A stretch of 64,000 nucleotides of DNA from Longimicrobiales bacterium (GTDB taxonomy: Bacteria; Gemmatimonadota; Gemmatimonadetes; Longimicrobiales; Gaopeijiaceae), in NCBI GenBank assembly GCA_965197725.1, contig CBDANQ010000052.1:1-64000 (forward strand). The letters run 5' to 3'. Within the stretch, counting starts at the first letter, position 1; every line of letters starts with the position of its first letter. Positions 24,501 to 27,500 of this stretch are shown here, piece by piece. The position numbers were made by a program.

Positions 24501-27500
24501 GGTGTCGTCCGCACTGCTAGAGCTCTTGGCGTAGGTCCCGAACGGACCCGTGGCGACTCGACGCGACTTCCTGTCCGGCTCTCTGGGCGCATACCCGTCG
24601 CCCCCCCAAGGGGGGCTTGCGTCAGAACCAGCGTCGGAGCCACCATTTTTCGAACGCGACCTTGCCCCAATGCCACAGGCGGCTGGGTCGGACGATCCTG
24701 ACACGGGGTTCGGGGTCGCTATAGAACCTTCCGGCGGCGAAGCCCGCCCGGCCGTCCCCGGTCTCGATCCAGCAGTAGCCTTTGCCGTCGAACCTGGCTT
24801 GGCGCCCCCGGCCCCTGATTTCGTACGCGATCTGACGTGCGACCACCTCGGCCTCGTTGTGGGCAAACACGCCCGCCTTCGGCAGTGACTTGCCGCTGGG
24901 TAGCCTGATCGCCGTGACGTCACCGATGGCGAACACCGCTCCGTGCTCCGTGCGGAGCGTCTCCGGGTCGACGTGGATCCAGCCCGACACGCCCAAGAGG
25001 CCAGACGATCGCACGACCTCAGGCGCCTGGTGGGGCGGAACCGCGATCAGGAGATCGACCCGTTCGGCGTGCCCGTCGGCCGTGACGATCTCCCGCGTCT
25101 CTGGACGCATCTTCTCGAACGTGAAGAGGCGGTGAAAGTGAATGCCGCGGTCACGGAGCATCTCCGCGATGGCCTCGCCCAGCGCCGCCTCGGCGACCGG
25201 CATGGGCTGATGCTCAGGCGTGTACAGGTGGATCTCCGAGCGGTCCCGTACGCCTCTGTCTCGGAGAAACGACTCCACAAGGAGCGCGGCTTCGTATGGA
25301 GCCGCTGGGCACTTGAACGGCATCGACGTAACCAGGACGCCCACTTTCCCGCCCGTGAAGGTGTCAAGCGCTTTCTGGATGTCTAGGCAACCCTCGACAC
25401 TGTAGAGATCGTGGGCCATCTCGGAGAAGCCCTCGATCGACTCCGGGATGGTCTGGGCGCCGAGCGCGACGATCAGATAATCGAAGTCGAGCCCGCTTTC
25501 GCGCGTCCGCACGCGTCTGCGCTCGAGGTCGATTTCCAACACCTCGTCGCGCAGGAACTCGATTCCTTTTCGGGTCAGTCGCTCCAGCGGCCGCCGGATC
25601 TGATCCTCTCGACGGTCTCCGACCATGAGCCAGAGCAGGGAAGACTGGAACAGGTGGTCCGGAGAACGGTCTAGGACGACGATGCGGTGATCCGCTCCCA
25701 GTCGCTTTCGCAGTTTGTGTGCGGCAACGACGCCACCGGCGCCGCCCCCCAGGACGACGATGCTCGCGGTGTCGGGTGTTATCCCGGCCCTGGGTGTCGG
25801 CTGCGTGGATTCGGGGGCTGCCGGCGCAGCCTCGGTTTCCGCGTCGAAAAGTTGGGCGATCGCGACCGAAAAACCGGTCTCGTCGAACTCGTTCTCGGAA
25901 AAGAGCACGTCGCCATCCGACCCTACGAGAATGCTCCACGGCACCCAGCCGCTCGTGAGCCGCTGGAAGAGTACACCATCCTCGTCGGGAACGACCGGGA
26001 AGGTCAGGTCATACTCCTCCTTCCACTTCTTGCACGAGTCTGCGGTCTCGAAGGCGCCCACGTAGACGACCTCGAGGCCCTTTGGCCCGAACCGCTCGAA
26101 GACGCGGCGCACGACAGGAGCCTCCTGCCGGCATCCCTGTCATTGACGCTTCCAGAAGACGATGAGCGCGCCGTGACCTCCGGCGACGGGCAGGCCCAGA
26201 TCCTCCAGCATTAGCGTGGAGCCGGCCGGGACACTCTTCCCGGACTCGTCGAGAACCTTCATCGGTTGCCTCATTCCGTCGGGTGATTCCGCGGACGATA
26301 AACCTACCGAAACATGCTCGAGAGCCCACGTTCCGACCGTCGGGAGATTTCCGACACCAGGGAAGGGAGAATCCCGCCTTCCTCTGTTCTCACGGCGGTG
26401 ATCGTGACTTACGGAGGCCATCCAATCAGCGGTGGTCAGGCACTAGGTGGTCAGACACTAGGTTAGGTATAGGGTAGGTAGCTGTAGGGATTCCTCAGGT
26501 CACGACTTATGAGACTCGGGCGCAGAACACTCTCTTCCCTTGAGATGGGGCCAGTGAGACCTGCGAGAGTCGGCTCATTCCTATTGTCCCTGCTGCTCTT
26601 GGGGCTTACGAGCTGCGGCGGTTCGGACGGTCCGGGAGGGACAGCGCCGGACACCCCGCGAGCCACGACCCTCAGCATCTCGCAGACTTCCGTCACACTG
26701 TCTTTTCTGGGCGCCACCGTCACGCTCAACGCGGCGATCCACGACCAGAACAGTCAGCCTTTCAGCGGCACCATCAGCTGGTCGACTGACAACCCCGCGG
26801 TCGTCACGGTCGACGCCGCGGGGTTGCTGACCGCGGTCAAAAACGGAACCGCGACCGTGAGCGCCACCTCGGGTAGCCTGTCCGGCACGGTGGCCGTCAC
26901 TGTGCAGGCCCAAAGCACGCTCGAGCTCGGAATGCCCATCAGTGGCATCGGGGCCGCCAAGGACGCCGAGCTGTTGTTCGCCTTCGAGCTCACCGAGGAA
27001 GACGGCTCGATCGAGTTCGCGCTCGACGGGGATCCTATTCAGAACGCGGACATCTATGTGCAGCACGGTTTCCCACCCCAACCGCCGCTAGGGTTGGACT
27101 ACGTGGATGAACCTTCCCTCGGGACGTGTAAGGGGATTACGCCGGACAGCAGCGAGTCGTGTCTCATCAACGCCGCTTTGCCCGGTACCTACCACATTCT
27201 GATCCACGCCTTCACGGCATTCTCGGGCGCCACGCTGAGCGTGACTACGGGTCTCGAGGTGCTTGCGTACAGCATCGAGCTCGAGTTCCTAACCACCCCG
27301 ACGAACGCGCAGAACGAGGCCTTCCAAGCCGCGGCCACGCACTGGGAGAGCATTATCCCCTTCGACATTACCGACATCCCGTTCGAGAACGAGCCCATCG
27401 ACGCCGACGCTTGTGTTCCAGGGCAACCCGCGATCAGTGACGTCGTAGACGACATCAGGATCTACGTCGACCTCGACTCGATCGACGGACCAGGGGAGGT

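What a model noticed while it worked through the whole genome (the two positions that open the first line are those of the whole stretch)
24622..26274. New selenoprotein architecture: ResA-like thioredoxin-fold domain with F-W-K-x-x-U-x-G-C fused to a type-III-SQR-like fl [...]
Gene calls g01708 (40 aa) and g01707 (496 aa, Pyr_redox_2, started at an internal codon) are one 550-codon gene with an in-frame TGA at codon 45. It encodes an N-terminal ResA/TlpA-like thioredoxin-fold domain whose redox centre is U-Q-G-C (VFWKRQ-U-QGCRQEAP), a ~40-aa linker and a sulfide:quinone-reductase-like (type III) flavoprotein. The same fusion occurs in at least five phyla and the codon is TGA in every case, followed 10 nt later by a 6-bp SECIS-type hairpin with compensatory changes: an obligate selenoprotein family that I did not find listed, missed by gene callers because the TGA lies near the 5' end.
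Evidence so far: Read-through translation. Family scan: 1 of 25 other Gaopeijiaceae genomes has the full fusion (75% id, 1 TGA); three matches in other genomes are SQR-like paralogs without the N-domain. genome_contigs scan: 53 loci; in all 35 loci where my pattern found the N-terminal domain the first redox codon is TGA, 0 TGC/TGT; the second is always Cys; 38 distinct DNA versions incl. G000 all have TGA. Hairpin GGCAGG-AGGCU-CCUGYC: 228 of 228 cells paired, pair 17-27 is A-U in 24 and G-C in 14 sequences, pair 15-29 G-C/G-U/A-U; slid controls 42-68% paired. NCBIfam: best models are SQR_III_seleno (249 bits v. cut 525, only residues 171-513), ResA (53 bits), WAxxUGC_long (27 bits v. 300): no model covers i [...]
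(Added by a program. Inside this text positions count along the whole contig: contig position 1 is position 1 of the stretch shown here. "Call 12" and the like, gene names such as g00115 and contig names such as C1 are that model's own, and its searches are not shown. The text may have been shortened before it was handed on; [...] marks where a part breaks off. The agent that wrote the report below was given it as the finding of a first reader that could run no searches.)

Follow-up and report, generated by a model that had tools for sequence, protein, structure and literature searches.

The report
Selenocysteine redoxin fused to sulfide-quinone reductase
What gene callers read as a stop codon is almost certainly a selenocysteine codon inside one long gene that joins a selenium-bearing thioredoxin-like domain to a sulfide-oxidising membrane flavoenzyme, a two-domain selenoprotein that databases cut short and that I did not find described.

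Summary
Window 24622-26274 (minus strand) is one reading frame with a single in-frame TGA at 26142-26140. The conserved start is more likely the second ATG (26262), which gives 546 codons with Sec at codon 41.

The product has three parts:
- a cytoplasmic TlpA/ResA-like thioredoxin-fold domain with the motif F-W-K-x-x-U-x-G-C;
- a disordered linker of about 18 residues;
- an SQR-fold flavoprotein that keeps both catalytic cysteines.

All 121 sequences examined (window, 40 genome loci, 80 metagenome loci) have TGA at the first redox position and none has a Cys codon. Two protein searches found only N-truncated calls and no Cys form.

A hairpin starting 10 nt after the TGA fits the published bacterial SECIS rules. 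One of its pairs switches A-U to G-C at least three separate times, each through a Gln-to-Arg change matched by a silent Pro change.

The genome has selA, selB, tRNA-Sec and a TGA-containing selD.

Function is inferred. I favour sulfide/persulfide:quinone chemistry with the tethered Sec as a built-in sulfane-sulfur acceptor (about 0.4).

I class it as a new variant of known kinds. This scan has found the same family before in other genomes.

The parts
24622..26262 (-). Whole gene: 546 codons plus TGA stop, from the start conserved in orthologs.
   Evidence: Read-through translation. The M-K/R-V start is shared by 31 intact orthologs. The third codon position is the most variable on both sides of the TGA: 0.476 upstream and 0.395 downstream, against 0.22-0.29 at positions 1 and 2.
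26269..26272 (-). Shine-Dalgarno-like GAGG, 6 nt before the ATG at 26262
   Evidence: Read directly from the sequence. Inference only.
26140..26142 (-).
   Evidence: TGA at this position in 121 of 121 sequences: the window, 40 genome loci and 80 metagenome loci. It aligns with the first Cys of CxxC in 10 of 10 distant homologs.
26131..26142 (-). Redox motif U-Q-G-C (U41, C44)
   Evidence: Both positions are invariant in 32 full-length sequences. Variants seen elsewhere: UQGC, ULGC, ULTC, UHGC, UIGC, UQTC.
26113..26129 (-). Core SECIS-type hairpin GGCAGGA-GGC-UCCUGUC, starting 10 nt after the TGA. The extended fold spans about 26101-26141.
   Evidence: 265 of 266 cells paired, with pair 17-27 A-U in 24 rows and G-C in 14. 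Three independent double changes on the tree. MFE -22.4 kcal/mol, z -2.19. Fits the bSECIS rules in the review's Fig. 2 legend.
25834..26262 (-). N-terminal TlpA/ResA-like thioredoxin-fold domain (residues 1-143), with no signal peptide or membrane anchor
   Evidence: Pfam AhpC-TSA 47.8 bits and Redoxin 32.9 bits. PDB ResA chains match at E down to 6e-11. Block-mean pLDDT is 82-96 for residues 11-140. The distant homologs carry an N-terminal hydrophobic extension that this protein lacks.
26032..26034 (-). Third invariant cysteine of the N-domain (C77, in E-T-x-[DE]-[SAT]-C-x-x-W)
   Evidence: Invariant in 32 of 32 sequences. Its role is unknown.
25780..25833 (-). Flexible linker (residues 144-161)
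   Evidence: pLDDT below 50 for residues 144-161. The sequence and length are poorly conserved.
24682..25779 (-). SQR-fold flavoprotein domain (residues 162-527)
   Evidence: Pyr_redox_2 84.5 bits. Human SQOR 117.8 bits. Foldseek hits 3hyv, 8dhk and 6oi6 at TM 0.79-0.84.
25732..25749 (-). FAD-binding G-G-G-A-G-G (residues 172-177)
   Evidence: G172, G174, G176 and G177 are invariant. The motif aligns with the N-terminal GxGxxG of human SQOR.
25309..25311 (-). First catalytic cysteine C318 (P-F-K-C-P-A-A-P-Y-E)
   Evidence: Aligned with the Cys of PVKCAGAP in human SQOR. Invariant in 23 of 23 fusions, SQR-only paralogs and true type III SQRs.
24772..24774 (-). Second catalytic cysteine C497 (G-K-G-Y-C-W-I-E)
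   Evidence: Aligned with the Cys of YTSCPLVTG in human SQOR. Invariant in 23 of 23. The same column is H-A/S-N-C in true type III SQRs, which matches the 'HxxU' site of the known selenoprotein subtype.
24625..24681 (-). C-terminal Trp-rich helix (residues 528-546, W-H-W-G-K-V-A-F-E-K-W-W-L-R-R-W-F), a likely membrane-surface anchor
   Evidence: Predicted helix at 528-545. W540, W541 and W545 are invariant. The membrane role is inferred by analogy with SQRs.
24622..24624 (-). True stop codon, also TGA
   Evidence: Orthologs end at the same position with TGA, TAG or TAA, so TGA keeps its stop meaning where no SECIS follows.

Best explanation
Identity (my odds about 0.93). This is a single gene for a selenoprotein of about 60 kDa. 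SelB and tRNA-Sec decode the UGA at codon 41, directed by a hairpin that begins 10 nt downstream. That places selenocysteine at the first position of the U-x-x-C redox centre of a cytoplasmic TlpA/ResA-like thioredoxin-fold domain. A flexible linker of about 18 residues tethers this domain to an SQR-fold flavoprotein. The flavoprotein has FAD, the two catalytic cysteines C318 and C497, no NAD(P)H-type second GxGxxG, and a Trp-rich C-terminal helix.

Mechanism (inferred, my odds about 0.4). The flavoprotein oxidises sulfide, or a persulfide, at its Cys pair and passes the electrons through FAD to membrane quinone, as SQRs do. The sulfane sulfur left on C497 is removed by the tethered selenolate U41. 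In human SQOR this job falls to a small-molecule acceptor, and for some type III SQRs to separate TusA/DsrE carrier proteins. The result is a Se-S intermediate that C44 (perhaps with C77) resolves or hands on.

Shown here: the reading frame, TGA conservation, the covarying hairpin, the Sec machinery, the folds and the catalytic residues. Inferred: Sec insertion itself, the direction of electron flow, the substrate, and contact between U41 and C497.
For: Reading frame and TGA:
- One open frame with a single internal TGA.
- TGA in 121 of 121 sequences and Cys in none.
- 76 of 80 metagenome loci are fused in frame; in the other 4 the contig ends first.
- Coding-type third-position variability on both sides of the TGA.

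Hairpin:
- 265 of 266 cells paired.
- Gln CAG always goes with Pro CCT (94 loci) and Arg CGG with Pro CCC (25 loci); none is mixed.
- At least 3 independent switches on a tree of 32 sequences.
- It meets the published bSECIS rules: loop A-GGC-U, 16-17 nt from the UGA, MFE -22.4 kcal/mol.

Sec machinery:
- selA 540 bits, selB 328 bits, tRNA-Sec with anticodon TCA, and selD with its own in-frame TGA.
- selA is over its cut-off in 5 of 5 fusion-bearing genomes from other lineages.

Homology and fold:
- U and C44 align with the CxxC of 10 of 10 TlpA-like homologs.
- SQR fold, with both catalytic Cys conserved in 23 of 23.
- The whole-chain model has pLDDT 87.1 and pTM 0.86.

Support for the mechanism:
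- The known selenoprotein subtype of type III SQR carries Sec at an 'HxxU' site (review Table 1). True type III SQRs read H-x-x-C at the column of C497, so selenium at this active site has a precedent.
- The type III SQR of Methylacidiphilum sits in an operon with TusA-like and DsrE2 sulfur carriers (PMC10205796, passages).
- A DsrE-like gene lies just upstream in 4 of 40 loci, and an ArsR-family regulator, often fused to a rhodanese domain, lies within about 1.2 kb upstream in 14 of 40.
Against: - There is no protein, selenium-labelling or RNA evidence.
- The window's own neighbours say nothing about function: a hydrolase and a peptidase.
- Sulfur-related neighbours occur in a minority of loci. 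The ArsR regulator scores only 44.8 bits against the BigR cut-off of 155.
- ArsM-like methyltransferase neighbours in 5-6 loci point to metalloid chemistry instead.
- The flavoprotein scores 249.5 bits, below the 525 cut-off for type III SQR.
- TlpA-like domains usually act as reductants of protein disulfides, not as sulfur acceptors.
- 7 of 40 genome loci carry frameshifts in the gene. These may be assembly errors or decay.
- The 'no Cys form' result rests on the best 80 of 131 metagenome relatives and the best 150 of 26028 profile hits.
Confidence: 0.45

Rival explanations
1. Same selenoprotein, different job. The thioredoxin-fold domain is the working end and the flavoprotein only recycles it. 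Either electrons from a dithiol or selenol substrate pass through U41/C44 to C318/C497, FAD and quinone (a cytoplasmic counterpart of DsbA-DsbB or VKOR-Trx). Or the enzyme handles arsenic, selenium or tellurium species together with the neighbouring ArsM-like methyltransferase under ArsR control.
For: - The TlpA/ResA-like domain has a complete U-x-x-C, Glu and cis-Pro set.
- ArsR-family genes lie next to 14 of 40 loci.
- ArsM-like methyltransferases (211.7 bits to arsenite methyltransferase), themselves with an in-frame TGA, follow the gene in L018, L019 and L021.
- Flavoproteins with tethered redox modules appear among the fold matches: CoADR-RHD 3icr and persulfide reductase 6pfz.
Against: - Both SQR catalytic cysteines and the SQR-type replacement of the second dinucleotide motif are kept, which is what sulfide chemistry needs.
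- Methyltransferase neighbours are present in only 5-6 of 40 loci and not in the window.
- ArsR/SmtB regulators also include sulfide and persulfide sensors.
Confidence: 0.25
2. Same selenoprotein acting as a peroxidase or reductase. Quinol, or another donor, reduces FAD and the Cys pair, which keep U41/C44 reduced so that they can destroy peroxides or reduce disulfides.
For: The best Pfam match of the N-domain is AhpC/TSA (47.8 bits). Sec-containing Prx-like proteins are listed in the review.
Against: - The motif is the TlpA type F-W-x-x-x-U-x-x-C, not the peroxiredoxin P-x-x-x-T-x-x-C.
- Quinol is a poor reductant for a selenenylsulfide. This rests on established redox potentials as I recall them.
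- The flavoprotein has no NAD(P)H motif.
Confidence: 0.08
3. The TGA is a real stop. The locus would hold a 40-codon leader ORF and a separate 496-aa SQR-like gene, or a decayed gene.
For: This is the reading table 11 gives. All 40 relatives found in the protein collection are N-truncated calls. 7 of 40 loci carry frameshifts.
Against: - The stop would cut a thioredoxin fold between strand 1 and helix 1, exactly at its catalytic residue.
- The 20 codons upstream evolve as coding sequence in the same frame.
- TGA is kept in 121 of 121 sequences, never TAA or TAG and never a sense codon.
- A covarying hairpin follows it.
- The genome decodes Sec.
Confidence: 0.03
4. The TGA is read through, but as Trp, Cys or Gly by near-cognate suppression or an altered genetic code, not as Sec.
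For: Read-through alone does not show which residue is inserted.
Against: - The gene's own terminator is TGA in the window and 9 orthologs, at a position where others have TAG or TAA, so TGA is still a stop.
- A complete Sec pathway is present.
- The hairpin fits the SECIS rules.
Confidence: 0.02

Closest known systems
Thioredoxin-fold UxxC selenoproteins listed in Table 1 of PMC13188914: Prx-like thiol:disulfide oxidoreductase (PF00578), thiol-disulfide isomerase-like (cd02966), redoxin family (PF08534), UGC-containing TlpA family
   Same: Same fold. Sec sits at the first position of the CxxC centre and is encoded by UGA with a SECIS directly downstream. The N-domain passes the Pfam cut-offs for PF00578 and PF08534.
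   Different: Those entries name no flavoprotein partner. Here the domain is always fused to an SQR-fold flavoprotein (76 of 80 metagenome loci; the other 4 are cut), lacks an export signal, and has no Cys-form ortholog in what I searched. It scores 27 bits against a cut-off of 300 for WAxxUGC_long and 53.4 against 170 for ResA.
[quoted passage not shown]
   Same: It is the nearest family for the flavoprotein part (249.5 bits). It is an SQR-type enzyme that uses selenium and keeps the same two catalytic positions.
   Different: The score is below the cut-off of 525. In that family, Sec replaces the second catalytic Cys inside the flavoprotein, and Cys homologs are common (PMC12013277, passages). 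Here that site is Cys and the Sec sits on an added N-terminal domain.
Human SQOR and bacterial SQRs with solved structures (8dhk, 6oi5/6oi6, 3hyv, 3sz0)
   Same: Same fold (TM 0.79-0.84), FAD motif, both catalytic cysteines aligned, and a C-terminal helix.
   Different: 22-25% identity, and none has an N-terminal redox domain. As I recall it, human SQOR hands its sulfane sulfur to a small-molecule acceptor.
Flavoprotein disulfide reductases with a tethered redox or sulfur-carrier module: mammalian thioredoxin reductase (C-terminal Gly-Cys-Sec-Gly), TGR, NTRC, AhpF, CoADR-rhodanese (3icr), NADH persulfide reductase (6pfz)
   Same: The logic is the same: a buried Cys pair next to FAD exchanges with a mobile Cys/Sec centre on a flexible arm or fused domain. 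3icr and 6pfz appear among the fold matches.
   Different: Those enzymes use NAD(P)H and belong to other subfamilies. The module and its position differ. The comparison with TrxR, TGR, NTRC and AhpF is from memory, not from a call.

Membership tests
Bacterial selenoprotein gene (UGA recoded as Sec) | In-frame UGA conserved among orthologs | tested here: met
   TGA in 121 of 121 sequences.
Bacterial selenoprotein gene (UGA recoded as Sec) | bSECIS stem-loop: stem 4-16 bp, loop 3-9 nt with G in its first two positions, 16-37 nt from the UGA, MFE <= -7.5 kcal/mol (PMC13188914, Fig. 2 legend) | tested here: met
   6-7 bp stem, loop A-GGC-U or A-GUG-U, 16-17 nt spacing, MFE -22.4 kcal/mol for the 45-nt stretch. 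Covariation at 2 pairs, with 3 independent events at one of them.
Bacterial selenoprotein gene (UGA recoded as Sec) | selA, selB, selD and tRNA-Sec present in the genome | tested here: met
   The genome is 88.9% complete.
Bacterial selenoprotein gene (UGA recoded as Sec) | UGA aligns with Cys in homologs | tested here: met
   It aligns with the first Cys of CxxC in 10 of 10 distant TlpA-like homologs. Within the family itself no Cys ortholog was found.
Bacterial selenoprotein gene (UGA recoded as Sec) | Selenium shown in the protein | not testable with these tools
   Needs 75Se labelling or mass spectrometry.
TlpA/ResA-like thiol-disulfide oxidoreductase | Thioredoxin fold with W-C-x-x-C, a downstream Glu and Pro, and a cis-Pro loop | tested here: met
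   F-W-K-x-x-U-x-G-C-R-x-E-x-P, with P108 invariant. Pfam Redoxin and AhpC-TSA are over their cut-offs.
TlpA/ResA-like thiol-disulfide oxidoreductase | NCBIfam ResA score at or above its cut-off (170 bits) | tested here: not met
   53.4 bits.
TlpA/ResA-like thiol-disulfide oxidoreductase | N-terminal signal or membrane anchor (extracytoplasmic location) | tested here: not met
   Most of the aligned homologs carry an N-terminal extension, hydrophobic in most, of up to about 40 residues. This protein starts about 30 residues before strand 1 with a polar sequence. No dedicated signal-peptide tool was run.
Type III SQR, selenoprotein subtype (NF049943) | Score at or above the cut-off of 525 bits | tested here: not met
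   249.5 bits over model positions 2-343 of 406. True members in the same phylum score 575-640.
Type III SQR, selenoprotein subtype (NF049943) | Sec at the HxxU site | tested here: not met
   That column is Cys here (G-Y-C-W), against H-A/S-N-C in 10 true type III SQRs.
Sulfide:quinone oxidoreductase (general) | SQR fold with an N-terminal FAD motif | tested here: met
Sulfide:quinone oxidoreductase (general) | Two essential cysteines (K-C-x-x-A-P and the C-terminal Cys) | tested here: met
   C318 and C497 align with the human SQOR cysteines and are invariant in 23 of 23.
Sulfide:quinone oxidoreductase (general) | Membrane-binding C-terminal amphipathic helices | tested here: inconclusive
   One Trp-rich helix is predicted at 528-545. 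Membrane binding was not tested.
Sulfide:quinone oxidoreductase (general) | Sulfide-dependent quinone reduction | not testable with these tools
   Needs an enzyme assay.

The most novel reading that the evidence does not exclude
Selenium is chemically indispensable here. A tethered selenolate forms a Se-S (selenenyl persulfide) intermediate with the SQR active site, which makes the enzyme a self-contained sulfide-to-protein-persulfide, or selenium-trafficking, machine coupled to the quinone pool. This would explain why more than 120 sequences from five phylum-level groups never use cysteine. It would be the first SQR with a protein-borne selenium acceptor, and a second, independent recruitment of Sec to SQR chemistry beside the HxxU subtype.
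Probability: 0.25. Interest if true: 0.8.

Novelty: new variant of a known kind. Interest (0 to 1): 0.62.

Why it matters
- Annotation. Every protein call I saw for this family is cut short at the UGA (40 of 40 relatives), so an enzyme present in soil, groundwater and sediment bacteria of five phylum-level groups is systematically mis-annotated as a plain SQR-like protein without its catalytic selenium domain.
- Selenoproteome. Families with no Cys counterpart are uncommon, as far as I recall. They point to chemistry that sulfur cannot replace.
- Sulfur biology. [quoted passage not shown] A built-in acceptor would make that step directly testable.

Tried and rejected
- Domain docking. Complex prediction on the two domains was not available for a read-through protein, so the docking question stays open. 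The protein-atlas search was likewise not available.
- Expression. No RNA holder was listed.
- Read laying. Contigs of four runs were laid. One run holds the whole stretch identically and may be the source. Relatives cover the TGA region and none of the 40 listed differences falls at 26140-26142, but 221 rows were not shown, so this is inconclusive.
- Split form. Searching for a stand-alone N-domain gene near 8 SQR-only paralogs and 10 true type III SQR loci gave 0 hits among 829 six-frame ORFs.
- Co-occurrence with the Sec trait in the phylum. This was uninformative: only the window's genome has the domain among 151 sampled, while 119 of 151 have selA. That count includes one unpublished genome, G057.
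- Promoter and terminator scan. Nothing above chance.
- Window neighbours. Uninformative.
- Literature. Searches found no paper on this architecture. The BSepDB main text holds no 'quinone', and the part of its supplement that is held (cut when stored) showed only a genome list, with no match for 'quinone', 'sulfide' or 'redoxin'. Haft & Tolstoy 2025 (PMC12013261) is not held, so it and NCBI's own curation notes remain unchecked.
- Rejected readings. Peroxiredoxin: the motif is the TlpA type. NAD(P)H-dependent reductase: there is no second dinucleotide motif, and the SQR-type K-C-P-A-A-P stands in its place.
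Full report
**What is in the sequence**

On the minus strand, window 24622-26274 translates as one frame of 550 codons. 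It has a single internal TGA (26142-26140) and a terminal TGA. Under table 11 the frame splits into a 496-aa ORF (24622..26112, GTG start) and a short upstream piece.

In 31 intact orthologs the protein starts M-K/R-V. That corresponds to the second ATG of the window (26262), which has GAGG 6 nt upstream. I therefore number from that start: 546 residues with Sec at 41.

**Domains**

- NCBIfam gives SQR_III_seleno 249.5 bits (cut-off 525), ResA 53.4 (170) and WAxxUGC_long 27 (300), so no curated model claims the protein.
- PDB sequence search gives human SQOR (117.8 bits) and bacterial SQRs for the C-terminal part, and ResA for the N-terminal part.
- An AlphaFold2 model built on 32 full-length sequences has pLDDT 87.1 and pTM 0.86. 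It shows a thioredoxin fold (residues 31-143), a disordered stretch at 144-161, the flavoprotein, and a terminal helix at 528-545.
- Foldseek places the model with SQRs 3hyv, 8dhk, 6oi6 and 3sz0 at TM 0.79-0.84 normalised to the target.

Aligned with ten distant TlpA/ResA-like proteins (25-29% identity), U41 and C44 fall on the two cysteines of W-C-x-x-C. The following Glu and Pro and the cis-Pro are invariant. Most of those homologs carry an N-terminal hydrophobic extension that this protein lacks, so it is probably cytoplasmic.

In the flavoprotein, C318 (P-F-K-C-P-A-A-P-Y-E) and C497 (G-Y-C-W-I-E) align with the two cysteines of human SQOR. To my recollection these are the catalytic pair. 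They are invariant in 23 of 23 sequences: 5 fusions, 8 SQR-only paralogs and 10 true type III SQRs. A third cysteine in the N-domain, C77, is also invariant.

**Is the TGA a selenocysteine codon?**

(a) Conservation.
- The genome-contig scan gave 53 loci. 40 carry the redox motif and all 40 have TGA. Eight are SQR-only paralogs and five are cut.
- The metagenome scan found 131 relatives, of which the best 80 were kept. All 80 have TGA. One of these, L129, also has a stop inside the VFWK motif. One of the three search patterns explicitly demanded Cys at this position.
- 76 of the 80 continue in frame into the flavoprotein. In the other 4 the contig ends first.

(b) Coding signal. In the 20 codons before the TGA, pairwise differences are 0.289, 0.220 and 0.476 at codon positions 1, 2 and 3. 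After it they are 0.259, 0.232 and 0.395. Both sides therefore evolve as one coding frame.

(c) TGA is still a stop in these organisms. The gene ends with TGA in the window and nine orthologs where others have TAG or TAA.

(d) Machinery.
- selA (540.6 bits), selB (327.8 bits) and tRNA-Sec (68.1 bits, anticodon TCA) are present. selD carries its own in-frame TGA.
- Five of five fusion-bearing genomes from other lineages have selA over its cut-off.

(e) The hairpin.
- Ten nucleotides after the TGA lies GGCAGGA-GGC-UCCUGUC.
- On 41 sequences (38 distinct), 265 of 266 cells pair. Slid controls give 36-59%.
- Pair 17-27 is A-U in 24 rows and G-C in 14.
- In codon terms, Gln CAG always goes with Pro CCT (24 genome plus 70 metagenome loci). 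Arg CGG always goes with Pro CCC (16 plus 9). There is no mixed case.
- The Pro change is silent, so protein selection does not explain the link.
- On a tree of the 32 intact sequences (the nine disrupted or cut loci were left out) the switch needs at least three events.
- The element meets the bSECIS rules in the 2026 review: stem 4-16 bp, loop 3-9 nt with G in its first two positions, 16-37 nt from the UGA, MFE <= -7.5 kcal/mol (section 5 and Fig. 2 legend).
- Here the loop is A-GGC-U or A-GUG-U and the spacing is 16-17 nt. The MFE is -22.4 kcal/mol (z -2.19; 7 of 200 shuffles fold as well).

**Is there a cysteine form?**

I found none.
- A word-indexed search of 5.8 billion proteins with residues 1-165 returned 41 hits. 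Forty are family members of 317-497 aa that cover at most 66% of the region, which means N-truncated calls. One is an unrelated 890-aa protein.
- A profile of the N-domain against 1.84 billion representatives gave 26028 hits. The ten best all begin at profile positions 53-68, just after the TGA. Of the nine further listed proteins I checked, seven with the domain near the N-terminus and two more high scorers, none has a flavoprotein domain.
- These searches saw the best 150 and best 80 hits only, so 'obligate' is a statement about what was searched.

**Distribution**

- By record titles, the 40 loci carry Gemmatimonadota, Actinomycetota (Thermoleophilia/Gaiellales), Acidobacteriota, Desulfobacterales and Myxococcales labels. 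These are submitters' labels on metagenome bins.
- The gene is rare locally. It occurs in 1 of 60 other genomes sampled from the window's family and is not in the same-genus genome.
- It occurs in 0 of 150 other genomes sampled from the phylum, although 119 of 151 have selA (this count includes the unpublished genome G057).
- IS110-type transposase genes lie 3-8 kb away in the window.
- Seven of 40 loci have frameshifts in the gene, mostly in one series of bins.

**Function**

The flavoprotein has the SQR hallmarks and lacks an NAD(P)H-type second motif, so quinone is the likely electron partner.

Three observations make me favour a sulfane-sulfur acceptor role for U41:
- The catalogued selenoprotein subtype of type III SQR has the motif HxxU (review Table 1). 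True type III SQRs read H-A/S-N-C exactly at the column of C497. Selenium at this active site therefore has a precedent, and here it would be supplied in trans by the fused domain.
- Type III SQRs can work with protein sulfur carriers. In Methylacidiphilum the sulfide-induced type III SQR is in an operon with TusA-like and DsrE2 genes (PMC10205796, passages).
- A DsrE-like gene lies directly upstream in 4 of 40 loci. An ArsR-family regulator, in several cases fused to a rhodanese domain, lies within about 1.2 kb upstream in 14 of 40.

Against this:
- The window's own neighbours are uninformative.
- ArsR proteins are generic.
- ArsM-like methyltransferases flank the gene in 5-6 loci, which keeps a metalloid-related role alive.
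- I could not obtain inter-domain distances.

I put the acceptor model at about 0.4, a 'redox module recycled by the flavoprotein' model at 0.25, a peroxidase model at 0.08, and non-Sec readings at 0.05 together.

**Comparison and novelty**

I read Table 1 of the 2026 review (119 families) in full.
- It lists generic thioredoxin-fold UxxC selenoproteins and the HxxU type III SQR, but no fusion of the two.
- The deep-Sep paper describes the flavoprotein selenoprotein as having Cys homologs and mentions no fusion (passages).
- Full-text searches found nothing on this architecture.
- The BSepDB text has no 'quinone', and the part of its supplement that is held (cut when stored) showed only a genome list.
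- Haft & Tolstoy 2025 could not be read.

The kind (Sec in a CxxC thioredoxin fold; SQR-type flavoprotein) is known. The fused, apparently Sec-only architecture is a new variant. Earlier notes of this scan describe the same family in three other genomes, and my independent checks agree with them.

Noticed in passing
L018:4681-5481, L019:4681-, L021:3020- (directly downstream of the fusion gene): An ArsM-like SAM methyltransferase (211.7 bits to arsenite methyltransferase, cut-off 263) continues through an in-frame TGA at L-W-A-[SG]-U-I-[AG]-G-A. This matches the 'UxxG' site listed for arsenite methyltransferase selenoproteins. It lacks the usual upstream Cys (F-A-G-V-G-N-P).
   Followed up: partly
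G000:C45:24135-25061 (own genome, outside the window): The genome's selD has one in-frame TGA, so SelD is itself a selenoprotein here. This serves as an internal positive control for Sec decoding.
   Followed up: partly
L019:2261-2923, L034:2260-2931, L036:914-1591, L045:2119-2925, L047:440-1129, L068:2312-2995: The ArsR-type HTH regulator next to the gene is fused to a C-terminal rhodanese domain. This could be a persulfide-sensing design. Plain ArsR versions occur in other loci.
   Followed up: partly
window 17553-18515 (+), 20111-21157 (-), 21358-21765 (-): Two IS110-family transposase genes and a Fic-domain gene lie 3-8 kb from the selenoprotein gene. Together with the gene's rarity in related genomes, this hints at an accessory or mobile region.
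   Followed up: no
window 33089-34294 (+): An ORF with a weak RuBisCO large-chain catalytic-domain match (52.5 bits) sits beside a dapB-dapA-dapD-like cluster (30349-33046). It may be a RuBisCO-like protein.
   Followed up: no
window 28138-30221 (-): Two overlapping ORFs of 664 and 670 aa in different frames on the minus strand have no Pfam match.
   Followed up: no
L037, L039, L054, L055, L059, L060, L063; L129: Seven genome loci have frameshifts inside the fusion gene, mostly bins of one series. One metagenome contig has a stop inside the VFWK motif. These could be assembly errors or decaying copies.
   Followed up: no
L056, L057, L061 (SQR-only paralogs): The closest paralogs without the N-domain sit behind an MMPL/RND-type transporter and a class I SAM methyltransferase. 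The same gene types also flank the fusion in L033.
   Followed up: no
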